Positions 2,522 to 46,550 of a stretch of DNA of 64,000 nucleotides are shown here, in pieces (the first letter of the stretch is position 1; each line of letters starts with the position of its first letter). This DNA comes from Pseudomonadota bacterium (GTDB taxonomy: Bacteria; Myxococcota_A; Polyangia; JAAYKL01), in the NCBI GenBank assembly GCA_023229365.1, contig JALNZK010000002.1:62343-126342 (forward strand), given 5' to 3'. A model generated the notes under the pieces. It was not told the DNA's origin. It did not search any database and worked only from the letters and a program-made list of their open reading frames with translations. The translations under genes and the position numbers were made by a program.

Positions 2522-3361
2522 CTAGTCCAAGAAAGCAACGTGTCGCATTGCTCTGGCTTTGGTTTCCTCATTCGGCAAAACTCGATACCAACCATCCAAG
2601 AGAACGGTTTTGTGGTCACTGTGGCGGATTTTGCCCCGCACATAAACCTCGGGGTCACGCACCATCGTTCTCCACAACACACCCTTGCGTTGATCCAGCG
2701 GCAGAGCAGCGTAAGCCTTTGCGGTAATTCCATTGGGGTGACTGCCATTGACATAAACGGTGGTGCCACCGATGCGATACAACTCCTCAGCCATGTGCGG
2801 CTTGCCACGTCCACGCTGCAAGGGTTCGTTTTTCAAAATGAGGCTTTTGTCTACCTTCAAGTTTTTGGCGGGCATAAAAAACCATTCACCTTGACGAATA
2901 TAAGCTTCGGTCTTGCGACGTTTCTTGTCCCTGGCCTTCATTTTCTTGGTCGATTGAGCCTGCAAAACCTGTGCGGGTTTCAGGGCCTCCATCGCTTGGG
3001 GGACACTCGACGCACCGGAGGTCTCGGGAATGGCAGCGGTGAACCAATCCCGCTCATCGTGACCACAGAGGAATTTGCTCTTCGTATCGTGGCCTTTGCC
3101 GTCGTCAATCTTCGTGAGCAGAAGCAGGTGGCGGTCCTTGGGACGAACATCCAGAACCTGCAATTCGACATCGTTCCCCACTTGGAGATCGAAGTAAGTA
3201 CCTTCTTTGTCCTTGCGAACATCGACTCTTACCGACTGATTGCGTGGCAATCCTGCGGTGAATCGCTGACCAGCCCGCAAGCGGGGGTCGTCGCCCAAAG
3301 TCGCAACCTTGACCCGTGCCCCCATCGCTTCAAATTTTTTGGATAATGCCGTAGTGTTCAT
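2522..3361 (-). CDS. hypothetical protein
   Basis: 279 aa ORF. Its ATG lies 6 nt downstream (in transcription sense) of the consensus -10 box at 3368-3373, so the transcript is probably leaderless. Confidence 0.5.
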   Translation of the reverse strand: MNTTALSKKFEAMGARVKVATLGDDPRLRAGQRFTAGLPRNQSVRVDVRKDKEGTYFDLQVGNDVELQVLDVRPKDRHLLLLTKIDDGKGHDTKSKFLCGHDERDWFTAAIPETSGASSVPQAMEALKPAQVLQAQSTKKMKARDKKRRKTEAYIRQGEWFFMPAKNLKVDKSLILKNEPLQRGRGKPHMAEELYRIGGTTVYVNGSHPNGITAKAYAALPLDQRKGVLWRTMVRDPEVYVRGKIRHSDHKTVLLDGWYRVLPNEETKARAMRHVAFLD

Positions 3362-4068: not shown

Positions 4069-5145
4069 ATGTACGATTATTTAATAGTGGGAAGTGGTTT
4101 GTTTGGAAGCACTTTTGCCAGAAAAGCCAAGGATGCAGGACAATCTGTGCTTGTAATCGAGAAAGAAAAACATGTTGGCGGGCATGTACGCACAGAAATT
4201 ATGGATGGAATCATAGTCTCACTATTCGGACCCCACATTTTTCACACCAAACACAAACATGTGTGGGATTTCGTCAACAAATTTAGTGAATTTAATCATT
4301 ATCGTCATCAAGTCAAAGCTAATTACAATGGAAAAATTATTTCTTTGCCATTTAATATGATGACATTCCACCAATTATGGGGGTGTATCACACCTGCTGA
4401 TGTTGAGGCTGAATTAGCAAAACGTCAAATTCCTATCGACAACCCACAAAATATGGAAGAATGGTGTTTAAGCCAATTGGGAGAGGAAATTTACCATACA
4501 TTAATATATCACTATACCAAAAAACAATGGAATCGTGATCCCAAGACACTTCCTGCCTCTATTATTAAAAGGCTGCCAATTCGTATGTCGTATGATGAAT
4601 CATACTTCGATGATCCCTATCAGGGCATGCCCATACATGGTTATACGCCACTAGTGGAAAAAATGTTAGATGGTATAGCCGTGCAGTTGGGAACTGATTT
4701 TAAAGAAATAAAAAATGATTGGAGGAAAATAGGAAAAAAACTTGTATACAGCGGAAAAATAGACGAATTCTTTGATTTTTGTTATGGAGAATTGGATTAT
4801 AGGACTATAGATTTCCAAACTACCGTTTTAGATGGCAATTTTCAAGGCGTAGCTCAAATGAATCACACTGGTGAATTACCAGTTTATACAAGAACCATAG
4901 AACACAAACATTTTTATTTTATAAATTCACCAAAAACAGTCATCACCTACGAGTTTTCGCAAGCCGCAACAAACACAAGTGCTCCAGATTATCCTGTGAT
5001 TGATGATAAAAATAAAAAAATATCTGGACTCTACAAGGCTATGCAAAGTCCAGATATTCTATTTGGAGGAAGATTGGGCACCCATAGTTATTTAAACATG
5101 GATGACTGCATTGATATGGCTTTAAGACTGTCCAGCTTCATATAA
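4069..5145 (+). CDS. glf: UDP-galactopyranose mutase
   Basis: The N-terminus MYDYLIVGSGLFGSTFARKAKDAGQSVLVIEKEKHVGGHVRTE is the typical Glf FAD-binding Rossmann start. The 358 aa length also fits Glf. Confidence 0.85.
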   Translation: MYDYLIVGSGLFGSTFARKAKDAGQSVLVIEKEKHVGGHVRTEIMDGIIVSLFGPHIFHTKHKHVWDFVNKFSEFNHYRHQVKANYNGKIISLPFNMMTFHQLWGCITPADVEAELAKRQIPIDNPQNMEEWCLSQLGEEIYHTLIYHYTKKQWNRDPKTLPASIIKRLPIRMSYDESYFDDPYQGMPIHGYTPLVEKMLDGIAVQLGTDFKEIKNDWRKIGKKLVYSGKIDEFFDFCYGELDYRTIDFQTTVLDGNFQGVAQMNHTGELPVYTRTIEHKHFYFINSPKTVITYEFSQAATNTSAPDYPVIDDKNKKISGLYKAMQSPDILFGGRLGTHSYLNMDDCIDMALRLSSFI

Positions 5146-5320: not shown

Positions 5321-5572
5321 TTAGCCTTGCGGTCCAGTCTGACCTGTAGCATTGCTTTCGGAAACAGAATTGGCGGGTCCAGAGCCCTCTATGACTATTG
5401 GTTTGCTCATACAACATTTGCCAAATTTCTTGCCCGAACCACACTTGCAGGGCTCAGTATACATTTTAGCATACCTTTCTTTTTGCAATTGCTCTGCCAG
5501 TTGTTTGGGCAAACAACATTTTTTGAACTTTATATTGCTTCCGCACGGACATGGACTGTTTCTAACACTCAT
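5321..5572 (-). CDS. SEC-C metal-binding motif protein
   Basis: Two copies of the SEC-C motif are present: CPCGSNIKFKKCC and CKCGSGKKFGKCC. Confidence 0.5.
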   Translation of the reverse strand: MSVRNSPCPCGSNIKFKKCCLPKQLAEQLQKERYAKMYTEPCKCGSGKKFGKCCMSKPIVIEGSGPANSVSESNATGQTGPQG

Positions 5573-5578
5573 AATTAT

Positions 5579-5893
5579 TTACCTATGAAAGTGATGTGGT
5601 TGATATGATGGACGATAATAATAGGATGGATATGGTTGATAATATCGATAATAATATGGCTGATACACTGGGCGAGACCAGAACATTGGTGGATAATTAT
5701 CAAAGGGCCTTGCATAACTTTGTCGAGCTAAGCCTGGATAATAATCATAAAGCGTCCTGGGCGTTCTCACAGCCCTATTTCTTTCCATATCTCCATATAC
5801 TTGATCGATCCTCATCTGTGGAGTTGGTGTAAAACCCATGCTCGGTGGCTGGGCGGATACAAGCACTACGCTTAATAATAAAGCTGAAATCAT
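5579..5893 (-). CDS. secreted Tyr/Pro-rich small protein
   Basis: An N-terminal hydrophobic signal-like segment (MISALLLSVVLVSAQP) is followed by a low-complexity Y/P/Q-rich tail (YQPYYYRYYQPYPSYYYRPSYQP). Confidence 0.4.
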   Translation of the reverse strand: MISALLLSVVLVSAQPPSMGFTPTPQMRIDQVYGDMERNRAVRTPRTLYDYYPGLARQSYARPFDNYPPMFWSRPVYQPYYYRYYQPYPSYYYRPSYQPHHFHR

Positions 5894-5962: not shown

Positions 5963-5999
5963 AAAAAAAGGAGAGGCAATTTTGCCTCTCCTTTTTTTT
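5963..5999. terminator. bidirectional rho-independent terminator
   Basis: A perfect 9-bp stem (GGAGAGGCA / TGCCTCTCC) encloses a 4-nt loop. It is flanked by an A-run on one side and a T-run on the other. It lies just downstream of the minus-strand gene 6015..6344. Confidence 0.7.
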
Positions 6000-6014
6000 A
6001 TTCAGTTTGTTTAG

Positions 6015-6344
6015 TTATTCATCGTCATCGTCTTCCCAATCCTCTTCGTCGTCGTCATCATCGTCATCGTCTTCCCAATCCTCTTCGTCGTCATCATCGT
6101 CATCGTCGTCTTCCCACTCCTCTTCATCGTCATCGTCGTCTAAATCGTCATATTCGTCGTCGTCATCGTCATCGTCGTCATCGAAATCCTCATCCTCATC
6201 ATCGAAATCCTCATCGTCATCTGCCATAGAGCAATTTGCTTGATTGGATTGGACTCGTTCCCACGCACAAGCAGCCACCCGTCGAACTTCTCGCCGGGCT
6301 TCTTCCGACAAGCCACTGTCGAATACTTTCAATCGAATACTCAT
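6015..6344 (-). CDS. hyper-acidic Asp/Glu-repeat protein (possible DNA mimic)
   Basis: 109 aa with a normal N-terminal 40 aa followed by about 65 aa of EEDWEDDDDDDDD repeats. An AAGGAG Shine-Dalgarno lies upstream and the terminator lies downstream. The plus-strand poly-Ser ORF 6007..6243 is its antisense shadow. Confidence 0.55.
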   Translation of the reverse strand: MSIRLKVFDSGLSEEARREVRRVAACAWERVQSNQANCSMADDDEDFDDEDEDFDDDDDDDDDEYDDLDDDDDEEEWEDDDDDDDDEEDWEDDDDDDDDEEDWEDDDDE

Positions 6345-6385
6345 GGATAATCTCCTTTAAAAATAAATCCTTGGTATGTAGCAAC

Positions 6386-6688
6386 CTATGTTGGTTTTTT
6401 CTTTTGTTGTACCTTTTTTTTCAGCACTAATTCTGTAAACTCCAACAAATCAGACCGCATCAGAAGCATATCTCTGTGCATTTCCTCTAGTTTTTCTTCT
6501 GTGTTAAACTCTTGCACTTCTTCCCCAGCTTTTACAACAGATCGCTCGCCATTACACACCAACTCCAACCAATCACCCCACTCCTCATCAAAAAAAGCTA
6601 CGTGTCCCCGAATGTTTACTGCGTGTTCCTTACATAGGCGGTCAAGTTTCCGTAAGAATGACCCCACCCGTTGTTTGTCGGTTATCAT
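6386..6688 (-). CDS. hypothetical protein
   Basis: 100 aa ORF. Confidence 0.4.
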   Translation of the reverse strand: MITDKQRVGSFLRKLDRLCKEHAVNIRGHVAFFDEEWGDWLELVCNGERSVVKAGEEVQEFNTEEKLEEMHRDMLLMRSDLLEFTELVLKKKVQQKKKPT

Positions 6689-6714: not shown

Positions 6715-6951
6715 TCAACAATGTTTCGGATTTCCAAGCCCAAACTCCACGGTGTACTTCCCCGGCAACAAACTGGTTTCCAAGAACCCTACCCCTTTCT
6801 GCACAAAATTTCCCTTATCATCCCCGATCCATATCTCTATGTCGGAAACCCCAGCATCAATCGTCAATTTGCAATAAGGATTACTCAAGGTTCTGAACAT
6901 CTGATTAGAAGATTCGCCCCACCCAACCGGCCCACAAATCACACCATTCAT
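6715..6951 (-). CDS. hypothetical protein
   Basis: 78 aa ORF. Confidence 0.3.
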   Translation of the reverse strand: MNGVICGPVGWGESSNQMFRTLSNPYCKLTIDAGVSDIEIWIGDDKGNFVQKGVGFLETSLLPGKYTVEFGLGNPKHC

Positions 6952-7241
6952 AGTTGATATCCACTATATTTGCCGTAAGCTGGCAACACGTCTGGTTTTT
7001 TCTTGGCACGGCGTCTTTCAGTGCGTACTTTGAGCTTCTTCAAAGCAGTTTTAACTTTTCCAGAATATCCATCAGCCTGTTCTGCCAGTCCCATGCTTTG
7101 TTACCTCTATCTTCCCGTTCTTTCGCCTCAATGTAGTGCAACGAAACTTTTTTGTCAAATCGTCGCCATTCTTTAAGGCTTCGTTGAATTCCTTCAACCC
7201 CTTGATGATCTTTTTGCCTACTTTACTCATTTGGTTTACCC

Positions 7242-8267: not shown

Positions 8268-8270
8268 AGG

Positions 8271-8341
8271 GTGGCCGACGAGAATCGAACTCGTATACCC
8301 GGATTCACAGTCCAGTTCCTAAGCCATTCGGACACGGCCAC
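8271..8341 (-). tRNA. tRNA-His (GTG)
   Basis: Cloverleaf readable on the minus strand: acceptor GTGGCCG/CGGCCAC, anticodon loop CTGTGAA, T-arm ACGAG-TTCGATT-CTCGT, discriminator C. The genome does not encode a G at position -1. Confidence 0.6.
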
Positions 8342-8343
8342 AG

Positions 8344-8416
8344 TGAGACCAGACGGACTTGAACCGTCACCTACTTCCTTAAGAGGGAAGAATGCTGCCG
8401 CTAACACCTTGGTCCC
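8344..8416 (-). tRNA. tRNA-Lys (CTT)
   Basis: Acceptor GGGACCA/TGGTCTC, anticodon stem CTTCC/GGAAG with loop CTCTTAA, T-arm GACGG-TTCAAGT-CCGTC. Confidence 0.6.
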
Positions 8417-8421
8417 AAAAA

Positions 8422-8703
8422 TCATTCAAAATCCACAATCTGACAACGACGATCAGAGTGATATTTTCCCAACACAACTTCCAACATTTCTTTATCAGAA
8501 AGAATTCCCTTGTCCGACAAAGTAGAAACTAAATTGCCGAGCACTTCGGCAAGTCTTTTGATCCTATCTTCGATTCCATTGTGCCTGTCGTAGAAGTCAT
8601 CCTTTCCTTCCATGACAAAATGCTCAACAAATTGTTCAACAGAAAATTCCTCAACAAATTCACCAGTGCTTGGGTGCGGAGTACCAAATCTTACTGTTTT
8701 CAC
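8422..8703 (-). CDS. hypothetical protein
   Basis: 93 aa ORF. Confidence 0.35.
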   Translation of the reverse strand: MKTVRFGTPHPSTGEFVEEFSVEQFVEHFVMEGKDDFYDRHNGIEDRIKRLAEVLGNLVSTLSDKGILSDKEMLEVVLGKYHSDRRCQIVDFE

Positions 8704-8918
8704 GATTCACCTCCTCCAAATAACGCTTCCAAATCTTCAGCGTCAATCACTCGCTGTCCATCGCTCAGTTGATAGACTTTCAGCTTCACGCCACCTAAAT
8801 CCAAAACGCCTCTGTGTGTGGCGAATGGAACTTCACCATCCAATTCTGGCGGTTCGGCAGGAAGAGACTCCCACTCCACCCCATCCAACAAAATTTGTAT
8901 TGGAGATTTGGATTCCAT
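8700..8918 (-). CDS. hypothetical protein
   Basis: 72 aa ORF with a consensus promoter 9 nt upstream. Confidence 0.4.
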   Translation of the reverse strand: MESKSPIQILLDGVEWESLPAEPPELDGEVPFATHRGVLDLGGVKLKVYQLSDGQRVIDAEDLEALFGGGES

Positions 8919-8927
8919 ATTGCCCTC

Positions 8928-8955
8928 ATTATACTTCAGAAATTGACGTTGTAAA
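8928..8955 (-). promoter_or_regulatory. sigma70-like promoter (TTTACA-N16-TATAAT on minus strand)
   Basis: Plus strand reads ATTATACTTCAGAAATTGACGTTGTAAA. Confidence 0.6.
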
Positions 8956-9207
8956 CCAATTCATTACCACGGCTTTCATTTGATCGCCAAACTCTTCAAT
9001 AGCTGCCTCAACCTCCCTGAAATCATCCCCTTCCTGCCACAAAACATCAGAACACTCCATCATCCCCTTCGGACTAAAATCAAACAAACGCTCAACAACT
9101 TCAAGTTTCTGCTCTCTTGTTAGTTGCATCTCATCCTCCACAACCACAAGGACTAAAATCCATATTTCGTTCTTTGGATAATTTATCAATACTTCCGTCT
9201 TCTGCAC
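8929..9207 (-). CDS. hypothetical protein
   Basis: 92 aa ORF. Confidence 0.3.
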   Translation of the reverse strand: MQKTEVLINYPKNEIWILVLVVVEDEMQLTREQKLEVVERLFDFSPKGMMECSDVLWQEGDDFREVEAAIEEFGDQMKAVVMNWFTTSISEV

Positions 9208-9400
9208 ATGTTTTACAAATTACCACATGTTCTTGACCATCGTGATATAATCGACAACCAACAAATATTCCGCACGACTCACAAGGAAATCCATCTCTGG
9301 CTTCGTTGGCTAAATTCCAATTACTCATTTTACATGTCCCCAATTTGCTATAGCAAGTGATTCTGTCCAGCGTCCAAACAGTGGATGCTCCCAAAACCAC
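9131..9400 (-). CDS. Cys-rich zinc-ribbon protein
   Basis: 89 aa with CESCG...CKTC...CGCGG cysteine pairs. Confidence 0.3.
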   Translation of the reverse strand: MVLGASTVWTLDRITCYSKLGTCKMSNWNLANEARDGFPCESCGIFVGCRLYHDGQEHVVICKTCAEDGSIDKLSKERNMDFSPCGCGG

Positions 9401-9525
9401 TCGTTATTCACCAATGGCGGATTTAATATCCTTTTCCATCCATTGGCCCTCAACTTTGCACGCCTTTGCCAACTATCTGTCAGCATTTCAGCAACTTCTG
9501 TCAGTGCTTTTTCACCAATAGTCAT
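9325..9525 (-). CDS. hypothetical protein
   Basis: 66 aa ORF. Confidence 0.3.
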   Translation of the reverse strand: MTIGEKALTEVAEMLTDSWQRRAKLRANGWKRILNPPLVNNEWFWEHPLFGRWTESLAIANWGHVK

Positions 9526-9539
9526 GATTATTCTCCAGG

Positions 9540-9611
9540 GTGACTAACGGGAGTCGAACCCGCTAAAACCTGATCCACAGTCAGGCCCCTAACCGTTCGG
9601 GATTAGCCACC
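9540..9611 (-). tRNA. tRNA-His (GTG)
   Basis: The extra 5-prime G(-1) is encoded and pairs with discriminator C. Acceptor GTGGCTA/TAGTCAC, anticodon stem CCTGA/TCAGG with loop CTGTGGA. Confidence 0.6.
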
Positions 9612-9866
9612 ATATTTCGTAATCCTAATCGACACCCACTCTGACTCTCCTCTTGGAAGAATACCAACCTGAAGCACGTTGTCCATTTTCCAATCAACAA
9701 CGGAATCATCGCAATATAACGAAAATTCCGATATAATGTCCTCAACATACAATCCTAAATCTTCCCAAAAAGCTGCTGATTGGAAAGCAATTCTCTGAAT
9801 TGACAAAAGCAATCGTCTTATTTGTACTCTGGTTATATTTTTTCCACATAACAATGCCAAGTCCAT
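9603..9866 (-). CDS. hypothetical protein
   Basis: 87 aa ORF. Its 3-prime end overlaps the tRNA by a few nucleotides. Confidence 0.3.
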   Translation of the reverse strand: MDLALLCGKNITRVQIRRLLLSIQRIAFQSAAFWEDLGLYVEDIISEFSLYCDDSVVDWKMDNVLQVGILPRGESEWVSIRITKYGG

Positions 9867-10018
9867 GTCACACCTCCATGATCTAAATCGATGTTATAGC
9901 CAGTTTTAGTGATTTTGATTATAACACCATCACCCGCCCGTTTGGGACACAACACCTTAACCCTATCGCCAATTTCAAGTAATTTTTTCATAAGCAGGAG
10001 TGCTAGGATTCGGACCAA
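9833..10018 (-). CDS. hypothetical protein
   Basis: 61 aa ORF. Its 3-prime end overlaps the tRNA-Trp 3-prime end, so the exact stop is uncertain. Confidence 0.25.
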   Translation of the reverse strand: MVRILALLLMKKLLEIGDRVKVLCPKRAGDGVIIKITKTGYNIDLDHGGVTWTWHCYVEKI

Positions 10019-10065
10019 GATCGACGGTTTTGGAGACCGTTATGCTACCATTGCACCACACTCCT
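9995..10065 (-). tRNA. tRNA-Trp (CCA)
   Basis: Acceptor AGGAGTG/CACTCCT is perfect. Anticodon stem ACGGT/ACCGT with loop CTCCAAA. T-arm TTCGAAT-like. Confidence 0.6.
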
Positions 10066-10071
10066 TCGCAG

Positions 10072-10146
10072 CAGCACCGCCAGGACTCGAACCCGGATCG
10101 CCTCGATTTGGAATCGAGTGCCCTAAGCCATTTGGACCACGGTGCT
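10072..10146 (-). tRNA. tRNA-Trp (CCA), second copy
   Basis: Acceptor AGCACCG/CGGTGCT, anticodon stem CTCGA/TCGAG with loop TTCCAAA, T-arm CCGGG-TTCGAGT-CCTGG. Confidence 0.55.
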
Positions 10147-10223
10147 GTATTTGAATGCTGTGGGTCGTGTGGGCGTGGCATTGCTAGGCAACGGCGTTTC
10201 CTCGGAACACCACAGCATTCAAG

Positions 10224-10302
10224 AGTCGGCAGGCGGAATCGAACCACTTAACATCTGATTTGCAATCAGACCCCCAGCCTTCGGAGATTAGTTTCTGCCG
10301 AC
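10224..10302 (-). tRNA. tRNA-Cys (GCA), atypical long D-region
   Basis: Perfect acceptor GTCGGCA/TGCCGAC. Anticodon stem TCTGA/TCAGA with loop TTGCAAA. T-loop TTCGATT. At 79 nt it carries about 6 extra nucleotides in the D-arm region. Confidence 0.45.
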
Positions 10303-10308
10303 AATTCA

Positions 10309-10386
10309 GTGGAGCTAGAGGGAGTCGCACCCTCAGTTACCAACGTACCCATTGTAGGTTTTACGTTAGACTCGCTTTGTAGCCCC
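10309..10386 (-). tRNA. tRNA-like element, anticodon undetermined
   Basis: Acceptor GGGGCTA/TAGCTCC (one G-U pair) and T-arm GAGGG-TGCGACT-CCCTC are clear. No canonical 5-bp/7-nt anticodon arm can be folded, so this may carry an insertion or intron or be a decoy. Confidence 0.35.
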
Positions 10387-10614
10387 TTATCTTTTTGGAC
10401 CTTGCCAATCATCCCTGTATTTATATGTAAATTCAGCATCAATTGGCGTGTTCAATCCTTCCTCTCGCAACATTTCCTCAAGAGCATCAGCCACTTCATC
10501 ATAAACATCACAACGCTCTTGTTCTACGGCCCAAGTCCATGTGCTGCCGGTAGGCGTATGACTTGCTTTTTCCCTTAATTGAGCAATATATGCTCTAATC
10601 TTTTCCGACTTCAT
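10387..10614 (-). CDS. hypothetical protein
   Basis: 75 aa ORF. Confidence 0.35.
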   Translation of the reverse strand: MKSEKIRAYIAQLREKASHTPTGSTWTWAVEQERCDVYDEVADALEEMLREEGLNTPIDAEFTYKYRDDWQGPKR

Positions 10615-10813
10615 CTTTCTTTCCCTTTTTCTTCTTTTCTTTTGGTGCTGATTTCAAACTTTCAATCAAAACTTTTACCTCAGCATTTTCCGCAAGTTTA
10701 GTTATCAACTCATTCAATCCATGAATCTCCAAACCTTGCCTTGTCGTTTGTTTCACAAGGTCTTGTATTACACCCTGTGGATCAGTTTGACAGCGTTCTT
10801 CAAAGGTTATCAT
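10595..10813 (-). CDS. hypothetical protein (Lys-rich C-terminus)
   Basis: 72 aa ORF. Confidence 0.35.
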   Translation of the reverse strand: MITFEERCQTDPQGVIQDLVKQTTRQGLEIHGLNELITKLAENAEVKVLIESLKSAPKEKKKKGKKDEVGKD

Positions 10814-10814
10814 T

Positions 10815-10997
10815 TTACCCTCTCACAACATCATGGATTTTTGACGGAGCTTGAACAACATCTATGATTTCAAAACCAGGAGGCATATATTTTTGTGCCT
10901 CATCCCAAGCTTCGCTCACACAAGCGGCGGCTACACTGATCTTTGGTGTCTTAACCTTTTCCTTGATGTTTTTCTTGAACTTTACAAGATATTGCAT
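10815..10997 (-). CDS. hypothetical protein
   Basis: 60 aa ORF. Confidence 0.3.
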   Translation of the reverse strand: MQYLVKFKKNIKEKVKTPKISVAAACVSEAWDEAQKYMPPGFEIIDVVQAPSKIHDVVRG

Positions 10998-11166
10998 GTT
11001 TCATCCTTTGCATCAAAATTTACACAATCACATTCCCAGCAGCAGCCTTCTTCGTCATGTGCTTCTGAAAGATGCCCACAGGAACATATCATTTTCTTAT
11101 ATCGACTGCAAGAGGGGTCGTGACCACCTCTCAAATCCCTTTCGCATTCGCTACATTCGATGCTCA
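10982..11166 (-). CDS. Cys-rich small protein
   Basis: The listed ORF's N-terminal extension runs through two tRNA genes. I shortened it to the internal Met MSIECSECERD..., which has an AAGGAG Shine-Dalgarno upstream. The protein is 61 aa with multiple CxxC pairs. Confidence 0.35.
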
Positions 11167-11182
11167 TATCATTCTCCTTTAG

Positions 11183-11253
11183 CTGCCCCGTAAGGAATCG
11201 AACCTTATCTTTCTCGTTCAGAGCGAGACGTGCGGCCACTACACCACGGGGCA
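11183..11253 (-). tRNA. tRNA-Gln (CTG)
   Basis: Acceptor TGCCCCG/CGGGGCA is perfect. Anticodon stem TCTCG/CGAGA with loop CTCTGAA. T-arm TAAGG-TTCGATT-CCTTA. Confidence 0.6.
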
Positions 11254-11259
11254 AAATAG

Positions 11260-11331
11260 CTGGGCTGGAAGGATTCGAACCTTCACGAACAGATTCAAAG
11301 TCTGTCAGGCTAACCGTTACCTCACAGCCCA
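11260..11331 (-). tRNA. tRNA-Gln (TTG)
   Basis: Acceptor TGGGCTG/CAGCCCA is perfect. Anticodon stem ACAGA/TCTGT with loop CTTTGAA. T-arm GAAGG-TTCGAAT-CCTTC. Confidence 0.6.
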
Positions 11332-11429
11332 AAAATTTGGTAAATATTTCGGTGTTCCACAGCTTAAACTGCCGAGGTTAGAGGCTGTCCATCCTCACCG
11401 AGGTTATCGGCCACCGTATCGCCAACTTG

Positions 11430-11510
11430 GGACATTTAGCAGGGGCAGAAGGAATTGAACCTCCGAGTGCTTTCGCATGCAGCTTCAAAGACTGCCGGGG
11501 TCTGCCAACA
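11430..11510 (-). tRNA. tRNA-like element, anticodon undetermined (possible degenerate or insert-containing tRNA)
   Basis: A T-arm (GGAGG-TTCAATT-CCTTC) and a G-rich acceptor are present. The putative anticodon region contains a GCATGC palindrome inside a 13-nt loop, so no canonical anticodon arm forms. Confidence 0.3.
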
Positions 11511-11529
11511 ACCCCAATACCCCCATGTT

Positions 11530-11612
11530 TGCAACCAACTGGAATCGAACCAATATTTCTCCGGTGTCGGGAACGTTTTGCCTTAGGCCGCTTTTTGCCA
11601 ACCCTTGTTCTA
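11530..11612 (-). tRNA. tRNA-like element or tRNA pseudogene
   Basis: A T-arm (ATTGG-TTCGATT-CCAGT) and a 3-prime acceptor strand TGGTTGC are present. No matching 5-prime acceptor strand or anticodon arm was found. Confidence 0.25.
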
Positions 11613-11654
11613 GAATTGAATTAGTTATTACGACCCCTTAAACTATAGTTGCAA

Positions 11655-11728
11655 GTGAGACCGTTGGGATTCGCACCCAAAACCTACGGCTTAAAAGGCC
11701 GTTGCTCTACTAATTGAGCTACGATCCC
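11655..11728 (-). tRNA. tRNA-Lys (TTT)
   Basis: Acceptor GGGATCG/CGGTCTC with G-U pairs. Anticodon stem ACGGC/GCCGT with loop CTTTTAA. T-arm TTGGG-TGCGAAT-CCCAA. Confidence 0.55.
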
Positions 11729-11818
11729 ATATAAGGAAAAGATTGCCAATCTTTATTACAGCAGCACAACCTTTGCAGGAAACCCTGGGAAAAGGATTTT
11801 ATGGCCACAAACCTTGAG

Positions 11819-11890
11819 TGGGTCCACTCGGAATCGAACCGAGGTCAAAACATTAAGAGTGTTCTATTCTAGCCGCTGAACTATGGACCC
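11819..11890 (-). tRNA. tRNA-Lys (CTT), second copy
   Basis: Acceptor GGGTCCA/TGGACCC, anticodon stem GAACA/TGTTT with loop CTCTTAA, T-arm CTCGG-TTCGATT-CCGAG. Confidence 0.55.
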
Positions 11891-11922
11891 AAAGGATAAA
11901 CCAAATTGTCAAAGATCACAAG

Positions 11923-11993
11923 TGGGTCCACGGGGAATCGAACCCCGATAAACTGGGTAAAAGCCAGTTATTCTGCCATTGAATTACGAACCC
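11923..11993 (-). tRNA. tRNA-Lys (TTT), second copy
   Basis: Acceptor GGGTTCG/TGGACCC, D-stem ATTC/GAAT, anticodon stem ACTGG/CCAGT with loop CTTTTAC, T-arm CGGGG-TTCGATT-CCCCG. Confidence 0.55.
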
Positions 11994-12643
11994 TACAACC
12001 ACTCTTCATTCACAAAACCACAATATTCTTGAATTGCTCCATAAATGTGTTGCACCATATGAGTGTCGCACACCCTTAAAGAACAAACTCCAAACTTATG
12101 CTTATTCTTTTTATACCCGCCACCTTCTCCCTCTTTGAAAACTCCCTTTCGCAAACTGCTATGGTCTAATTTCAAAATTCCAAGCCAATAATCTTCAATC
12201 TCTTTTTTTGATAGACCATTGTTTAAATAACAATTGATGCATATTGTATACTTTTGTTTTGGGAAGTAGGTATCCACAAATTTTTTAAATGCACAAATGA
12301 CATTCGCATCCGTATTCGCCAAGCTTGCCACATTTCTACTTTTTGTTCCTTCTGCCCAATACAGCGTACAACCCAACAAATGCTGCAACTCTCCCTTTTT
12401 CGCCTGCTCCCTCCCCTCTTGCTGATATTGTTTCCTAATTGCCAAATATTTTTTTCTTGTTCCTTCTTTGCCAGCAAACCCTATTCTTCCATCTAAATTC
12501 TTGCGTTTCGTTTGCGACATTTTTATGGGGCGTGTCCATACACTTGCTGTTGATTTAGACACACCCAACAAATTCACTATTTCACCAAGCGACTTACCTT
12601 CTTTCCTCAATTGTTTGGCTTTTTCTTTTAACTCTTTTTTCAT
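11993..12643 (-). CDS. HTH-domain protein, putative LAGLIDADG-like homing endonuclease
   Basis: An N-terminal helix-turn-helix (SLGEIVNLLGVSKSTASVW) is followed by an LLGCTLYWAEGTKS segment that resembles the LAGLIDADG/GEG dodecapeptide. The gene abuts the 5-prime end of tRNA-Lys inside the tRNA array. Confidence 0.4.
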   Translation of the reverse strand: MKKELKEKAKQLRKEGKSLGEIVNLLGVSKSTASVWTRPIKMSQTKRKNLDGRIGFAGKEGTRKKYLAIRKQYQQEGREQAKKGELQHLLGCTLYWAEGTKSRNVASLANTDANVICAFKKFVDTYFPKQKYTICINCYLNNGLSKKEIEDYWLGILKLDHSSLRKGVFKEGEGGGYKKNKHKFGVCSLRVCDTHMVQHIYGAIQEYCGFVNEEWL

Positions 12644-12698
12644 AATAGAACCTTGCCTTTCTACCTATATATAATAGCAAAGTTCTATTTTTTTCAAG

Positions 12699-12772
12699 TC
12701 GTGGCTTTGAGAGTCGAACTCAACACGGAATCCTTATCAGGGATTCCAGGGCAAACCGGCCCGTCAGCCACG
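12699..12772 (-). tRNA. tRNA-Ile (GAT)
   Basis: Acceptor CGTGGCT/AGCCACG is perfect. Anticodon stem (GG)AATCC/GGATT(CC) with loop CTGATAA. T-arm TTGAG-TTCGACT-CTCAA. Confidence 0.6.
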
Positions 12773-12777
12773 TATTT

Positions 12778-13488
12778 TCAATTCAAACTCGGATCGCACT
12801 TTGGAAACATATCAAAGAACGAACTTTTCCTTTCTTTCAATGGTTTTGATTCATACTTATACTTTTCATCAAGAGACCCCAGTCCCCTGGGATAACCCTC
12901 CAAAACTGTCAAACAACCTACAGCATCGCCCCAGGTCCAGTTGTTGGCAAGAGACTCTTTTGCAAACTCTGCCATGTAAGCTCTTGCTCTTGGAACCAAG
13001 CCATCATCCATCTTGTCGTTATACAAATCTTTTGCATAACTTAGAAGCCTGATAGCTTCCATAAGCACCAACAAATAACTTTTTTTTCCAAAATCCAATG
13101 GCACACCCAGAAGCATGTTACCTTCTGTTGCCACAACGCAAACAAAGGAAAAATCACCCAAAGCCACAGGAGTCACACCTGAAAGCATCAATTTTGAACT
13201 AAATTGTGACAATTCCTTCAAAGCATCGAGTGGTATAGTATTAAATTTATCAAACAAATGTTGAAGCAACTTCATTACCCTCCGTCCTTGCAAAGCAACA
13301 GGATCATCGGGTGGCAAATTATCAATCCTTGGAATTGTGTCCATCATAATGCTCCTAAAGCCAATAAAAAAAGCCCTGTCCAGTTTTTTACCTGAACGGG
13401 GCTTTTCAATACCAACCCGGCTCAGGCATTTGTCCTGAGCCACGGTGCAACTCAGAACAGATCGCCAGTAATGCAGCAATGCTGCCAC
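12778..13488 (-). CDS. hypothetical protein
   Basis: 236 aa ORF with a probable GTG start. Confidence 0.45.
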   Translation of the reverse strand: MAALLHYWRSVLSCTVAQDKCLSRVGIEKPRSGKKLDRAFFIGFRSIMMDTIPRIDNLPPDDPVALQGRRVMKLLQHLFDKFNTIPLDALKELSQFSSKLMLSGVTPVALGDFSFVCVVATEGNMLLGVPLDFGKKSYLLVLMEAIRLLSYAKDLYNDKMDDGLVPRARAYMAEFAKESLANNWTWGDAVGCLTVLEGYPRGLGSLDEKYKYESKPLKERKSSFFDMFPKCDPSLN

Positions 13489-13537
13489 TTTTGTTTCTGT
13501 TGTTTTTGTTGCTTCGACATTATTCTTTTTCCTTCAG

Positions 13538-13611
13538 TGGCGGGAGTAGGATTTGAACCTACGGCCTCAAGGTTATGAGCCTTGCGAGCTACCAGACTGC
13601 TCCACCCCGCA
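13538..13611 (-). tRNA. tRNA-Met (CAT), initiator-like (1:72 mismatch)
   Basis: A standard 73-nt cloverleaf. Acceptor TGCGGGG/TCCCGCC has an unpaired position 1:72. D-stem GAGC/GCTC. Anticodon stem CAAGG/CCTTG with loop CTCATAA. T-arm GTAGG-TTCAAAT-CCTAC. Confidence 0.55.
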
Positions 13612-13632
13612 TCATGTTTTCAAAAATTAAGT

Positions 13633-13703
13633 GGCAGGGGCGGGGGATGATCCCGCTTTCATTTGGTTATGAGCCAAATAAGATAACCGTACCTACCCCC
13701 TGC
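13633..13703 (-). tRNA. tRNA-Met or tRNA-Ile2 (CAT)
   Basis: Acceptor GCAGGGG/CCCCTGC is perfect. Anticodon stem TTTGG/CCAAA with loop CTCATAA. The T-loop is atypical (ATCATCC). Confidence 0.45.
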
Positions 13704-28839: not shown

Positions 28840-31800
28840 TTAAGCCGTAAAAATAGAAACTGGAATTGACGGAATCGATAGATTGACTATTTGGCTACCA
28901 ATATAAATCCTAAGGGCGGTATTACCCTCCCAAGCAGAAGCATCAAACAAGCCTATATTATCTACTAGTTGTGCGTCTACTGCTGCTTCTCCGGTAATAG
29001 GATTGATGGCTGTTCCACCACCATAATAGAAGAATTCAAACTTTATTCCAAATTGTAATGTTTTGTTGCAATACGGATTGATCGCAAAATTTACTCTCAA
29101 TTTCGCTGATGTGTTCTTGGTTGTACCAAGCAAATTCTGCAACCTGTGTGCTGTTAGCACATATTGCCAAGTCCAATCAGCTATGCTGACATCTCCTATG
29201 ACACTTGTGCAATTCCACTCATATTGCAATGTCCATTTTTCAGTGGTGTGTTCTTCCAATCCTACGCCAGCAAAATGACTTGTTCCCCGCCAATAGGGAT
29301 CAAAATTCCCACCATACAATAAATTGACAACATTAGGAAACACTAAATTATTTTTAAGCAAGAAAAACTTTAATTTAGACAATCTATTAAAATCGTGCTG
29401 CATATACAAAATCTGTGGAATTGGCTGGCACTCACAAGAAGTGGATACATTCTCTTGCGGCAACCAAATAATTGGCTGTGAATTGTACAAATCTGAATCA
29501 GGGTACTTTGGAGCTTCTACAATTGCAACGTCTGCACCGCCGAAAGTATCAAACTCACCCTTGTAGCTACAATCTGTTTCGGACAAACCTTCAACATCTA
29601 TCTCCCCCAAAGCATGCCATGTATATGCTGAACTTATCACAAGGGATGTTCCACCTATTGTTATGCCACCTTCTGCCCTAATATCCAATAATGAATTTCC
29701 GCCAATCACTAAACTTCCAGCAGACACATGAGTAAATGTACCAAAATATCCCCCCTCTAATGTTATTGTTCCACTTGCAGTAGCTGCCCAAGCAGAAGAA
29801 ACTACTATAGCACTCCCGCCCAAGGAGAAAGGTGTTGGAACAACCACATACGGCACAGGATAAGCAAGAGAAGTGCCTTTTATTTCCAACTCGCCAGAAG
29901 ATGTGTATAAATAATCCATTGTGACAATGTTGGAATTTGCAGAGCCAATTAAAGCGACCACTCCTTCAGCAAGATGAATATATGTTGCTTTTTCAGAAGA
30001 TACGCCACTTAGCCCTAAACCACCTGAGGCTTCCCACTCCCACACGGGTGACACTACACTCGACATTCCTGTAATCAAAACCGTTCCATTGGCCACTGCT
30101 TCCCATGCACTACACGCCAACAGAGATAAGCCATCTATGCTTAAAGACCCAGAAGCCACACAATCATAGTGGCTGCTAATCACAGGTGAAGTCCCAGTAA
30201 TTAAAATACCACCAATTAGCTCACATACGCCACTGCTGTCAAATTCTAAACTGAATGCATTTGAAAAAGCCCCAGGAGGCAAACACCACTGTGCAGGTGA
30301 AGTGCCGCCTATTTCAATTTTGACAACACTCTCAACAATATCGACAGTTAAGAAAAATGTTTTTATACCACCGCTAACATTAGGAGCAACAGCTATTGAA
30401 GTAGTAGTAATTGATGCTGGGGGTATTGTGTAACCAACAGGTCGATGAAAAATAGGTGCAACAGCAGTATCGACACTTGTAGTGGTGGTTACTGTTCCTG
30501 CCCCTAATCCGGTAGAAAGTGTGAACTCTAAACATTCGGGCACTGTTTGCCATCCGACTTGATCTTCGCAAACTATCCAGGGTCCAGTTTGCCCCAATAT
30601 TACATCATTTTTTGAATCCAGCGGCTTTAAATATTTTTTAATAGATTTAACACGCCAATACAACAATGGACGATCTGCCTGTATTTTCTTTAATTTGGTG
30701 CATACATCCTGAATGTTTGCGGCGGTCAAATACCTAATATAATACATGCCACAAGTGCCAGTACAAACTGGTCCCCACACTGTCCCTGGAAAACCACCAC
30801 CACCACCACCACCTGAACTTGACGTTGAGCTACTTGAACTTGATTTTGAGCTACTTGAACTTGATTGTAAAAAGTTCAAGCTCAAGTAGTTCGAACTTGA
30901 ACTTGAATTTTTTGAACTTGAACTACTTGAACTGCTACTTGAACTTAACTTTGAACTACTTGAACTTGGAATTGGTGGATAATCCGCCACTATCGTAGGA
31001 AGTGGATTTCCTATAGTCCCTGGCATAGGGTCATAATAATTCCCAAAGGGTATCCACGGAAAATAGGGTGGTTGTGTGGAATCACAAATTCCAATGCCAT
31101 AACCTGGGTCACGCCACTCTGGATTTGCATGTATACCAACTTGTGTGCTAAGATTCCATTTACAAATTTCGGGATCATACCAAAATACAAACGCCCCATC
31201 ATCTCGTGTGTATGTCAGTCCCTTGCCATACTTACCAGAACAATAATAATCACCCATGCAATTTGGCTGAGGGCTTACATGTCCACTGGCTCCCAATACT
31301 CTAATATGCTCGTAAGGATTTAAACCACTACACTCTTGTCCATCTGGTCCGTAAAGGAATGATCTAAGAGCCTCTGGTGGTATCAATCCTAAATTCACAA
31401 CCTCACCATCAGTTGTTTCTTTAGAAATATTTGAATCTACGAAAGATACATCCACATCAAGAGGCAACTCTTCGGCAAATAATAAATGTGGGCTTTCTAC
31501 CCCTCCTAAAATAACAATAAAACCATTAAATCTATAGTCAGGAGGAGCAAGAGGAATCTTAATCCTTATGGTGTCAGAATCAATATGCTCAACACTTTGA
31601 ACATCCACTAATGTTGCTGGCGAAGTAGTTTCATCCCAAATCTCGACAACAACCCCATTAGAGTGAAGATTGTGAACAAATGTAATTTCATACATGCCCC
31701 CACTCGAAACCCAATCAGATATGGAAAATGCATGTCTATAATAATATAGATTTACATAAGACTGTGATGAACTTGAAGAGCTACTACTGCTACGGCTTGA

Positions 31801-46325: not shown

Positions 46326-46550
46326 TTATACTGTTTTTGGTCTATTTGCTTTTATGCGTTTCATTTGGGCCGCTTTTTCTTTTCGCCTACGGCGTTCTCC
46401 CTTGCTTTCAAAATACTGTTTTGATTTCCACAAGGTCATCACACCAGAATCCGTTGTTTTTTTTCTAAACTTACCCAACAAATTCCTAAAGTTTTCTTCG
46501 GGCGACTTTCCATGTTCCACCCGCAAAATCGCTCTACAATTCACTGCCAT
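46326..46550 (-). CDS. rpsU: 30S ribosomal protein S21
   Basis: 74 aa basic protein with the S21-like pattern (FRNLLGKFRKK...YFESKGERRRRKEKAAQMKR). A GAGGAG Shine-Dalgarno lies upstream. Confidence 0.65.
   Translation of the reverse strand: MAVNCRAILRVEHGKSPEENFRNLLGKFRKKTTDSGVMTLWKSKQYFESKGERRRRKEKAAQMKRIKANRPKTV

What the first reader, a model, noticed from the sequence alone, without database searches (positions are those of the whole stretch)
6015..6344. Extreme poly-acidic protein (about 65 consecutive D/E with a periodic W): candidate DNA mimic or anti-restriction factor
After a 40-aa ordinary N-terminus the protein is almost pure Asp/Glu with an EEDWEDDDDDDDD periodicity. It has a good Shine-Dalgarno and a strong terminator. 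It resembles Ocr/ArdA-type DNA mimics in charge density, or nucleoid-protein decoys.
Basis: inference. Interest (0 to 1): 0.5.

Follow-up and report, generated by a model that had tools for sequence, protein, structure and literature searches.

The report
Poly-acidic tail protein of huge phage
A huge bacteriophage encodes a real 109-residue protein made of a short ordinary head and a disordered tail that is 90% aspartate/glutamate with regularly spaced tryptophans; it probably acts as a nucleic-acid-like decoy, but it is not related to the known DNA-mimic families and its target is unknown.

Summary
Window 6015-6344 (minus strand) is a 109-aa ORF. Residues 1-41 are ordinary, with one predicted helix. 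Residues 42-109 hold 61 D/E and seven hydrophobic residues (F,F,Y,L,W,W,W) and no basic residue. It has an AAAGGAG ribosome-binding site, a strong terminator hairpin and a 39-nt tandem repeat in three copies.

It is a real gene. Codon scoring favours the D/E frame over the antisense poly-Ser frame. Strain variants (96, 109, 110 aa) differ only by in-frame changes in D-run length and keep every aromatic residue. A more distant relative keeps a 109-aa gene at the same position. A still more distant one has an acidic-tail gene behind the same upstream motif.

The window is part of a huge phage. The protein matches no Pfam, PHROG, NCBIfam or PDB entry, so it is not an Ocr or ArdA member, and it is predicted disordered rather than a folded mimic.

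The architecture is not unique. At least 39 small viral ORFs share it, and W-punctuated acidic tails also occur on gp2.5-like SSBs and T4 gp67-like prohead proteins.

My best guess (about 0.4) is an electrostatic nucleic-acid-mimic decoy, following the logic of SPO1 Gp44. The function is untested.

The parts
6015..6344 (-). Complete ORF of the poly-acidic protein (109 aa plus TAA stop)
   Evidence: ORF list, composition and codon score in favour of this frame. Alleles of 96 and 110 aa occur in other assemblies.
6222..6344 (-). Ordinary N-terminal region, residues 1-41. A short hydrophobic stretch IRLKVF is followed by one amphipathic helix (residues 14-33, nt 6246-6305). It contains two Cys (C26, C38).
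   Evidence: AlphaFold2 on the single sequence gives helix 14-33 with pLDDT about 79 and the rest unstructured. These 41 residues are identical in L125 and L002. The lineage whose neighbouring protein is 78% identical shows 4 amino-acid changes in residues 11-17.
6018..6221 (-). Disordered polyanionic tail, residues 42-109. It holds 61 D/E and 7 hydrophobic 'anchors' (F47, F54, Y65, L68, W77, W90, W103), with no basic residue.
   Evidence: All seven anchors are kept in the 110-aa allele although four D-runs change length.
6019..6134 (.). 39-nt (13-codon) tandem repeat, 3 copies, encoding EEDWEDDDDDDDD. Copy number differs between assemblies.
   Evidence: TRF reports period 39, 3.0 copies, 92% matches. 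L002 lacks exactly one 39-nt unit. Logan contigs L003, L005 and L128 all break inside it.
6352..6358 (-). Shine-Dalgarno AAAGGAG, 7 nt upstream of the ATG
   Evidence: Read directly. It is identical in L125, L002 and L126.
6375..6388 (-). Conserved intergenic motif TAGGTTGCTACATA upstream of the gene. It overlaps the stop codon of the upstream gene.
   Evidence: The motif is unique in the window. It is identical in L126. In L127 it reads TAGGTTaCTACATA directly upstream of the acidic gene, although a 78-aa ORF has been inserted there. Its function is unknown.
5963..5998 (.). Symmetric intrinsic-terminator hairpin (9-bp G+C-rich stem, 4-nt loop, A-run on one side and T-run on the other), 16 nt after the stop codon
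   Evidence: -25.1 kcal/mol, z -7.5. The stem is kept in L125, which has a 1-nt loop deletion.
6386..6688 (-). Upstream neighbour gene (100 aa, no family match, lysine-rich C-terminal tail KKKVQQKKKPT). It ends 41 nt before the acidic gene and was used as the synteny anchor.
   Evidence: The basic C-terminus is kept in its homologues.

Best explanation
This is a genuine, expressed-looking gene of a huge phage. It encodes a two-part protein. The first part is a short N-terminal module of about 41 aa with one amphipathic helix. This module probably provides self-association or docking.

The second part is a 68-residue intrinsically disordered polyanion carrying about 61 negative charges, punctuated by aromatic or leucine residues every 6-13 positions.

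The most likely mode of action is electrostatic mimicry of nucleic acid. The carboxylates would stand in for phosphates and the W/F/Y side chains for bases. The tail would then occupy the basic DNA- or RNA-binding surface of a target protein and keep nucleic acid out.

Candidate targets are host RNA polymerase, a nucleoid protein, an SSB-tail-binding enzyme or a DNA-sensing defence protein. The same logic has been shown for the disordered acidic domain of SPO1 Gp44 and for the acidic, aromatic-tipped C-terminal tail of T7 gp2.5.

Shown here: the gene, its frame, its conservation, its composition rule and its predicted disorder. Inferred: the mimicry mechanism. Unknown: the target.
For: Evidence that the gene is real:
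- Codon score for the D/E frame.
- Ribosome-binding site and terminator.
- Same strand as all flanking genes.
- Alleles of 96, 109 and 110 aa in independent assemblies, with all substitutions synonymous and all indels in frame.
- An orthologue start with amino-acid changes but an intact frame.
- A 109-aa gene called at the syntenic position in a lineage whose neighbouring protein is 78% identical.
- An acidic-tail gene behind the same upstream motif in a lineage whose neighbouring protein is 63% identical.

Evidence for a composition rule:
- All 7 non-acidic tail residues are F, Y, L or W.
- None is N, H, G, A, V, K or Q, the residues reachable from GAY/GAR codons by a single base change. W, F and L each need at least two changes (genetic code).
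- All 7 anchors are kept while D-run lengths drift.

Evidence for disorder: AF2 finds no structure beyond helix 14-33.

Evidence for generality:
- The pattern [DE]3-W-[DE]8 finds at least 119 viral stretches.
- 39 of these are small ORFs with an ordinary head and a C-terminal acid tail.
- In those tails W, L, Y and F make up 49% of the non-acidic residues, even after removing the one W that the search demanded.
- The same tails sit on gp2.5-like SSBs (phrog_112, E 8e-46).

Precedent: in SPO1 Gp44, residues 56-122 are 57% D/E with no basic residue, are disordered, are described as an ssDNA mimic, and bind RNAP beta/beta' (PMC8208478).

From established knowledge (not tested here): the T7 gp2.5 acidic tail with its terminal Phe competes with ssDNA for the DNA-binding cleft.
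Against: There is no functional or interaction data of any kind.

No homology links this protein to any characterised mimic.

The genomic context is uninformative. The gene sits among small ORFans next to a tRNA array, RtcB and Glf, not in an identifiable anti-defence or early-gene cluster.

In-frame indels are what triplet-repeat slippage produces regardless of selection, so they are weak evidence on their own.

Extreme polyanions can do other things, such as chaperoning basic proteins, binding cations or acting as prohead core proteins.

Only a handful of relatives could be recovered, and the full sequence of the most informative one (the 109-aa orthologue in ERZ1426851) was not retrievable.
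Confidence: 0.4

Rival explanations
1. Charge chaperone or neutraliser for basic phage proteins. The polyanion would bind and shield strongly basic partners until they reach DNA or the capsid, as nucleoplasmin-type acidic IDRs do for histones. Candidate partners are the lysine-rich tail of the upstream 100-aa protein, the two small basic proteins in the same gene run, or an unidentified phage DNA-binding protein.
For: The upstream neighbour ends in KKKVQQKKKPT, and its homologues also end basic.

Two small lysine/arginine-rich ORFs lie in the same gene run, at 6948-7094 and 7072-7230, and both are called as genes in L003.

Literature precedent exists for acidic IDRs acting as DNA-charge mimics in histone chaperones (PMC10987829, listed).
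Against: In L127 a membrane ORF separates the neighbour from the acidic gene, so the pairing is not strict. No interaction has been tested. The charge is far out of proportion, about -59 against roughly +7 to +9 per candidate partner.
Confidence: 0.2
2. Prohead core or internal virion acidic protein of the T4 gp67 type, involved in head assembly or packaged with the DNA.
For: Some retrieved proteins with W-acid tails match the 'prohead' family phrog_1064 (E 1e-5 to 4e-4).

Neighbours of the 39 small acidic-tail viral ORFs that share this architecture include terminase, portal, protease and major head proteins in a few cases.
Against: The window protein does not match phrog_1064 or any PHROG. 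Its neighbours are tRNAs, RtcB, Glf and ORFans, not head genes. No structural gene was recognised among the large ORFs tested in this 64-kb window.
Confidence: 0.1
3. Ocr/ArdA-type anti-restriction protein: a dsDNA mimic that blocks type I restriction-modification enzymes.
For: Only the charge density supports it. Phages commonly need anti-restriction functions.
Against: There is no Pfam match to the Ocr or ArdA families at E<=10 and no PDB match. The tail is predicted disordered rather than a rigid DNA-shaped fold. Low-complexity repeats of variable length (96 to 110 aa) are unlike the fixed geometry on which Ocr and ArdA rely.
Confidence: 0.08
4. Divalent-cation (Mg2+/Ca2+) or polyamine sink. 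A calsequestrin-like polycarboxylate would alter ion availability in the infected cell.
For: There are 61 carboxylates in 68 residues. Poly-Asp proteins bind Ca2+ in other systems (general knowledge).
Against: It does not explain the strictly aromatic/leucine interrupters or their conservation. One small protein is unlikely to shift millimolar Mg2+ pools.
Confidence: 0.05
5. Not a functional protein. Either it is a by-product ORF of a (GAY)n simple-sequence expansion, or the real product is the antisense poly-Ser ORF (6007-6243, plus strand).
For: The tract is a slippage-prone triplet repeat whose length varies between assemblies. GAT/GAC changes are synonymous in both the D frame and the antisense Ser frame.
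Against: The codon score is +78.6 for the D/E frame against -10.8 for the Ser frame.

The Ser ORF starts with TTG inside the terminator, has no RBS, and runs against all neighbouring genes.

The RBS, ATG and N-terminus of the D/E ORF are conserved in relatives, and the gene position and length are kept in a diverged lineage.

Interrupters that need at least two base changes are conserved.
Confidence: 0.05

Closest known systems
Bacillus phage SPO1 Gp44 (host-takeover RNA polymerase inhibitor; PMC8208478)
   Same: Both are small phage proteins built as a short N-terminal module followed by a long, intrinsically disordered, D/E-rich segment with no basic residues. That segment in Gp44 is described as an ssDNA mimic binding a nucleic-acid-binding host enzyme. 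Neither has homologues outside close relatives.
   Different: No sequence similarity was found; the PDB entry of the Gp44 N-domain is among the chains that gave no hit. Gp44 is 237 aa with a third, C-terminal coil domain, and its acidic part is 57% D/E. Here the protein ends with the tail, which is 90% D/E and carries periodic W. Whether the N-terminus binds DNA is unknown.
Acidic C-terminal tails of phage and bacterial ssDNA-binding proteins (T7 gp2.5, T4 gp32, E. coli SSB tip DDDIPF)
   Same: Both have an acidic stretch with aromatic residues. W-punctuated acid tails like this one were found here on gp2.5-like SSBs in viral contigs (phrog_112). Those tails compete with ssDNA and recruit partner proteins (established knowledge).
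   Different: There is no OB-fold or any SSB domain in front of the tail. The tail is several times longer and more extreme. It would be a free-standing 'tail only' protein.
T7 Ocr and ArdA (structured dsDNA mimics, anti-restriction)
   Same: Both are very acidic, small, phage or mobile-element encoded, and candidates for blocking DNA-binding enzymes.
   Different: Ocr and ArdA are folded dimers that copy the shape and charge pattern of B-DNA. This protein is low-complexity, predicted disordered and variable in length, and it matches neither family.
T4 gp67-type prohead core proteins (phrog_1064)
   Same: Both are small phage proteins with a helical N-terminus and an acidic C-terminal part. 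Members with W-acid tails were retrieved by the same DNA pattern.
   Different: The window protein does not match the family, and it does not lie in a head-assembly gene cluster.
Uncharacterised small 'head plus W-acidic tail' ORFs in IMG/VR viral contigs (e.g. L007, L012, L016, L021, L038, L082, L091, L116, L118)
   Same: They share the same architecture and the same composition rule. Several sit on jumbo-size contigs (L009 on 210 kb, L084 on 299 kb).
   Different: Their N-termini are unrelated to this one (phmmer/blastp gave nothing) and fall into several separate families. None tested matches an informative PHROG. Their contexts differ; for example, L012 sits just upstream of a large terminase gene.

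Membership tests
Ocr (T7 gp0.3) family | Sequence match to the Ocr family model or to the solved Ocr chains | tested here: not met
   Pfam-A gave 0 families at E<=10. PDB sequence search gave 0 hits at E<=10.
Ocr (T7 gp0.3) family | Folded helical dimer whose surface carboxylates copy bent B-form DNA | tested here: not met
   AF2 predicts a single helix (14-33) and an unstructured tail with pLDDT 53-59. This was a single-sequence model, so confidence is limited.
Ocr (T7 gp0.3) family | Inhibits type I restriction-modification enzymes | not testable with these tools
   Needs an in vivo restriction assay or binding to EcoKI.
ArdA family | Sequence match to the ArdA family model or solved structure | tested here: not met
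   No Pfam, NCBIfam or PDB hit.
SPO1 Gp44-like disordered DNA mimic | Long disordered segment rich in D/E and devoid of K/R/H | tested here: met
   The tail 42-109 has 61 of 68 residues D/E and no K, R or H. It is predicted unstructured. Gp44 residues 56-122 are 57% D/E with no basic residue.
SPO1 Gp44-like disordered DNA mimic | Homologous folded N-terminal DNA-binding domain (Xis-like, PDB 6L6V) | tested here: not met
   No PDB chain matched at E<=10. The N-terminus is only 41 aa with one predicted helix.
SPO1 Gp44-like disordered DNA mimic | Third, C-terminal random-coil domain needed for full RNAP inhibition | tested here: not met
   The protein ends with the acidic tail (...WEDDDDE*).
SPO1 Gp44-like disordered DNA mimic | Binds RNA polymerase beta/beta' and stops host growth | not testable with these tools
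   Needs pull-down, ITC or a toxicity assay.
gp2.5-like / phage SSB | OB-fold ssDNA-binding domain preceding the acidic tail | tested here: not met
   No PHROG or Pfam hit for the window protein. Proteins from viral contigs that carry the same kind of tail do hit phrog_112, phrog_1192 and phrog_378.
T4 gp67-type prohead core protein (phrog_1064) | Match to the family profile and location in the head-assembly gene cluster | tested here: not met
   No PHROG hit. The neighbours are tRNAs, RtcB, Glf, a SEC-C protein and ORFans.

The most novel reading that the evidence does not exclude
The window protein is one representative of a widespread, so far undescribed class of phage 'tail-only' polyanions. 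These would be small proteins that consist of little more than a free-standing, aromatic-anchored acidic tail of the kind found on SSBs. Many unrelated phages, including huge phages, would use them as tunable decoys against host proteins that read nucleic acid or SSB tails, such as RNA polymerase, nucleoid proteins, SSB-interacting enzymes or SSB/DNA-sensing defence systems. Tail length would be adjusted rapidly by triplet-repeat slippage.
Probability: 0.25. Interest if true: 0.65.

Novelty: new variant of a known kind. Interest (0 to 1): 0.4.

Why it matters
If the tail really is a nucleic-acid decoy, it would be the most extreme and simplest example of disordered DNA/RNA mimicry by a phage. 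It would also show that mimicry needs no fold, only charge plus spaced aromatic anchors.

The survey done here suggests that such proteins are common in viral metagenomes. They appear to be systematically missed by family libraries, and were absent from the protein collections searched here, because of their low complexity. Characterising one could therefore open up a hidden class of host-takeover or anti-defence factors.

As a single gene without functional data, it is a moderately interesting lead and not yet a discovery.

Tried and rejected
1. Homologue searches with the protein itself all came back empty:
- The full protein gave 8000 word-sharing candidates, none significant.
- The N-terminal 41 aa found no candidate.
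- A full HMMER scan of 1.84 billion representatives with the N-terminus gave one hit, P0001 (E 5e-5). P0001 is a 422-aa protein with four copies of 'SEARGDLLRRGASAWERV'. I rejected it as repeat-inflated chance similarity.
- These negatives are weak. The 96-aa and 109-aa proteins are themselves absent from the protein collection although their neighbours are present. The metagenome scan also missed a JGI contig that carries an identical N-terminus.

2. Other direct searches also found nothing:
- tblastn of the protein against 50,697 phage genomes gave no match, with the low-complexity filter on.
- megablast of 8 kb around the gene gave no match.

3. Pattern-based scans for related loci found nothing useful:
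- Scans with the N-terminus, the 100-aa neighbour, the 147-aa neighbour and an alignment of neighbour homologues in viral, metagenome and GTDB genome contigs gave no result.
- RtcB found one 527-kb relative (L001, 60% identity), but without synteny.

4. I guessed that a group of the small acidic-tail viral ORFs lies between portal and protease genes, as T4 gene 67 does. This was not confirmed, because their neighbours have no PHROG match. Only L012 sits next to a large terminase.

5. I asked whether the conserved upstream motif is a general phage promoter. It occurs only once in the window, so I rejected that idea.

6. N-termini of two families of these small acidic-tail viral ORFs were searched in cultured phages, with no match.

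Full report
**What is there**

The coordinates given, 6015-6344, are those of a minus-strand ORF of 109 codons. Its product is MSIRLKVFDSGLSEEARREVRRVAACAWERVQSNQANCSMA followed by a 68-residue tail. The tail contains 61 Asp/Glu, no Lys/Arg/His and seven other residues, all hydrophobic: F47, F54, Y65, L68, W77, W90 and W103.

The D/E are therefore not strictly consecutive. The longest unbroken run is 12.

The last three tryptophans belong to a 39-nt tandem repeat encoding EEDWEDDDDDDDD. It has 3.0 copies with 92% matches at 6019-6134.

An AAAGGAG Shine-Dalgarno lies 7 nt before the ATG.

A symmetric hairpin with a 9-bp G+C-rich stem sits between an A-run and a T-run, 16 nt after the stop. Its energy is -25.1 kcal/mol, z -7.5.

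No other reading frame in the 64-kb window contains a 30-residue stretch with even 50% D/E.

**Where it sits**

The window is a piece of a huge phage genome. The evidence is as follows:
- Nearly all long ORFs are on the minus strand.
- It carries 15 tRNA genes.
- It encodes an RtcB ligase, an NAD-dependent DNA ligase, radical-SAM proteins and a DnaE-type polymerase.
- The best match of that polymerase among phage genomes is a 595-kb uncultured phage, at 42% identity.

The neighbouring 100-aa protein is in NCBI as a hypothetical protein of a 'Proteobacteria bacterium' MAG on a 340-kb contig.

The acidic gene is the last of a run of small minus-strand ORFs without family matches, downstream of the tRNA array. 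Beyond its terminator lie a Tyr/Pro-rich protein with an N-terminal hydrophobic segment, a double SEC-C-motif protein and a UDP-galactopyranose mutase.

**Is it a gene, and in which frame?**

A codon log-odds score trained on 30 long ORFs of the window gives these values:

| Region | Frame | Score |
|---|---|---|
| Tail | D/E frame (minus strand) | +78.6 |
| Tail | antisense poly-Ser frame | -10.8 |
| N-terminal 41 codons | D/E frame | +4.9 |

The poly-Ser ORF starts with TTG inside the terminator, has no ribosome-binding site and runs against all neighbours.

Relatives were found through the upstream neighbour, because searches with the protein itself failed (see caveat below).

1. An ENA contig of 100 kb (L002) is identical to the window over 16.7 kb except for the loss of exactly one 39-nt unit. 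This gives a 96-aa protein.
2. Logan contigs from two runs are 100% identical to the window but break inside the repeat.
3. A JGI contig (L125) from a slightly diverged strain encodes a 110-aa version.
   - It has four indels (+3, +9, -3, -6 nt), all inside D-runs.
   - All substitutions are synonymous.
   - The N-terminus and all seven hydrophobic residues are unchanged.
4. A lineage whose neighbouring protein is 78% identical keeps the gene order and has a gene call of 109 aa at the same position. Its DNA could not be fetched.
   - A short contig of that lineage (L126) shows an almost identical intergenic region and RBS.
   - Its first 19 codons read MSIRLKVFDSDLPKEAQRE, which is four amino-acid changes with the frame intact.
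5. A lineage whose neighbouring protein is 63% identical (L127) has a 78-aa membrane ORF inserted.
   - After it come the same upstream motif (TAGGTTaCTACATA), an RBS and an acidic-tail gene.
   - That gene has a different, shorter head: MTCKESYMWKLSKCSNVL followed by DEDDDDLEEDFDDLDELDEDDDEDDD....
   - The contig ends inside the tail.

I note that in-frame indels are what triplet-repeat slippage produces anyway. GAT/GAC changes are also silent in the antisense Ser frame. The weight therefore rests on the codon score, the RBS, the conserved start and N-terminus, and the conserved position.

**A composition rule**

Every interruption of the acid run is F, Y, L or W. Single-base changes of GAY/GAR codons give N, H, Y, A, G, V, K, Q or stop. 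W, F and L need at least two changes. None of the easy replacements other than one Y is present, and all seven anchors survive while run lengths drift. This points to selection for 'acid plus spaced aromatic/leucine' rather than to a decaying simple repeat.

**Structure and family membership**

AlphaFold2 on the single sequence gives one helix (residues 14-33, pLDDT about 79) and no structure in the tail. The sequence searches gave the following:
- Pfam: nothing at E<=10.
- PHROGs: nothing at E<=0.01.
- NCBIfam: nothing meaningful.
- All PDB chains: nothing at E<=10.

The PDB and Pfam sets include Ocr, ArdA and the N-domain of SPO1 Gp44. The protein is therefore not a member of any described DNA-mimic family.

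**Caveat on negative searches**

The protein searches returned no homologues. However, the 96-aa and 109-aa sequences are themselves not in that collection although their neighbours are. The metagenome scan also missed a JGI contig with an identical N-terminus. 'No homologue' therefore only means that none is retrievable with these resources.

**The architecture is recurrent**

Translation of the surrounding ORFs shows three groups.

(a) At least 39 small ORFs of 60-180 aa have an ordinary head of 20-80 residues and an acid tail running to the C-terminus.
- They fall into several unrelated N-terminal families, some on contigs of 200-300 kb.
- None resembles the window protein's head.
- None of ten tested matches an informative PHROG.
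- Two family heads tested have no match in cultured phage genomes.

(b) ssDNA-binding proteins carry the same kind of tail. These include gp2.5-like proteins (phrog_112, E 8e-46) and other SSB families.

(c) Small proteins match the 'prohead' family phrog_1064.

In the tails of group (a), W, L, Y and F make up 49% of the non-acidic residues, even after discarding the one W demanded by the pattern.

Neighbours of group (a) are mostly unannotated. A few are head or packaging genes; for example, L012 lies directly upstream of a large terminase.

**How it most likely works**

The best-supported reading is a disordered polyanion that imitates nucleic acid and competes for a basic nucleic-acid-binding surface. 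The aromatic residues would act as base-like anchors. The N-terminal helix would provide oligomerisation or docking.

The closest characterised precedent found in the literature is SPO1 Gp44. It has a folded 55-aa N-domain, then a disordered segment of 67 residues that is 57% D/E without basic residues. The authors describe that segment as an ssDNA mimic binding RNA polymerase beta and beta' (PMC8208478).

The acidic, aromatic-tipped tails of T7 gp2.5 and bacterial SSB work on the same principle (established knowledge). The occurrence of W-acid tails on gp2.5-like proteins here suggests that the window protein could be a free-standing copy of such a tail.

I give this mechanism about 0.4, and the target is unknown. 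The rivals are:
- a chaperone for basic phage proteins, since the upstream neighbour and two small ORFs in the same run are lysine-rich: 0.2;
- a prohead-core or internal protein: 0.1;
- a true Ocr/ArdA-like anti-restriction function: 0.08;
- a cation sink: 0.05;
- a non-functional or antisense product: 0.05.

**Novelty and score**

The gene is real and its composition is striking. It belongs to a compositional type that is common in viral metagenomes, and the proposed principle (acidic disordered mimicry) is already known. It has no homology to anything characterised and no functional evidence.

I rate it a new variant of a known kind, with interest 0.4. The more novel reading is a widespread hidden class of slippage-tunable 'tail-only' decoys. 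I give that a probability of about 0.25, and it would deserve about 0.65 if shown.

Noticed in passing
window 8269-13703 (minus strand): An array of 15 tRNA genes (His x2, Lys x4, Trp x2, Cys, Gln x3, Ile, Met x2) is interspersed with small ORFs, just upstream of the gene run that ends with the acidic gene. No tRNA-Asp or tRNA-Glu is in this window.
   Followed up: no
window 5579-5893 (minus strand): A 104-aa ORF has a hydrophobic, signal-peptide-like N-terminus and an extremely Tyr/Pro-rich remainder (…YQPYYYRYYQPYPSYYYRPSYQPHHFHR). It has no family match. It lies directly after the terminator of the acidic gene, and a 111-aa gene is called at the same place in the lineage whose neighbouring protein is 78% identical.
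   Followed up: partly
window 6375-6388 (minus strand); L126 688-701; L127 1785-1798: The intergenic motif TAGGTTGCTACATA travels with the acidic gene even where another ORF has been inserted upstream (L127). It is unique in the window. In L126 the whole 41-nt intergenic region is better conserved than the flanking coding sequence. Its function is unknown.
   Followed up: partly
window 6019-6134; L003 end, L005 and L128 starts: Short-read assemblies break or collapse at the 39-nt repeat. Logan contigs from two runs end or start inside it, and a MEGAHIT contig has one unit fewer with zero mismatches over 16.7 kb. Copy-number differences may be partly assembly artefacts.
   Followed up: partly
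protein collections (not window coordinates): The 96-aa and 109-aa acidic proteins are absent from the 15-billion-protein collection although the gene is called on the contigs and the neighbouring proteins are present. Low-complexity proteins of this type seem to be missing from the searchable protein space, which would hide the whole class.
   Followed up: partly
window 6948-7094 and 7072-7230 (minus strand); 6386-6688 C-terminus: Two overlapping small ORFs (48 and 52 aa) are strongly lysine/arginine-rich. The 100-aa upstream neighbour ends in KKKVQQKKKPT, and that basic end is kept in its homologues. They are possible partners of the polyanion, but this is untested.
   Followed up: no
window 1-64000; NCBI MCK9458276.1: The source appears in NCBI as a 'Proteobacteria bacterium' MAG contig of 340 kb. 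The gene content (DnaE polymerase closest to a 595-kb uncultured phage, 15 tRNAs, RtcB, NAD ligase, almost unidirectional genes) indicates a huge phage filed as a bacterial bin.
   Followed up: partly
window 4069-5145 (plus strand) and 5321-5572 (minus strand): A phage-borne UDP-galactopyranose mutase (GLF, E 3.5e-65) lies on the opposite strand in a lower-GC stretch (0.37). Next to it is an 83-aa protein made of two SEC-C motifs. Both are conserved in the lineage whose neighbouring protein is 78% identical.
   Followed up: no
window 2522-3361 (minus) and 2540-3346 (plus): A 279-aa minus-strand ORF with no family match is mirrored by a 268-aa open frame on the plus strand over almost its whole length. 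Gene callers pick the minus-strand one.
   Followed up: no
window 28840-32313 (minus strand): The largest ORF of the window (1157 aa) has no PHROG match at E<=1e-5. The same is true of the ORFs at 46541-47704, 47701-48846 and 49083-50396.
   Followed up: no
IMG/VR loci L012/L095/L103; L038/L053/L124; L018/L050; L017/L019/L107; L045/L083/L086/L114: There are at least five recurrent families of small viral proteins with a conserved ordinary head and a W-punctuated poly-D/E tail of variable length. Many end in an aromatic residue (…NY, …EY, …DF). None is annotated. L012's family lies immediately upstream of the large terminase gene.
   Followed up: partly
L001 4212-5498: In the 527-kb relative found through RtcB, a 428-aa ORF near RtcB carries a long, mixed acidic C-terminal region (…EDDVEEEEFESEADFEAGGDLEYDESDEVDSVVPEDDLGYVDDEDVEDEEESLI). 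It is not homologous to the window protein, and there is no synteny with the window around RtcB.
   Followed up: no
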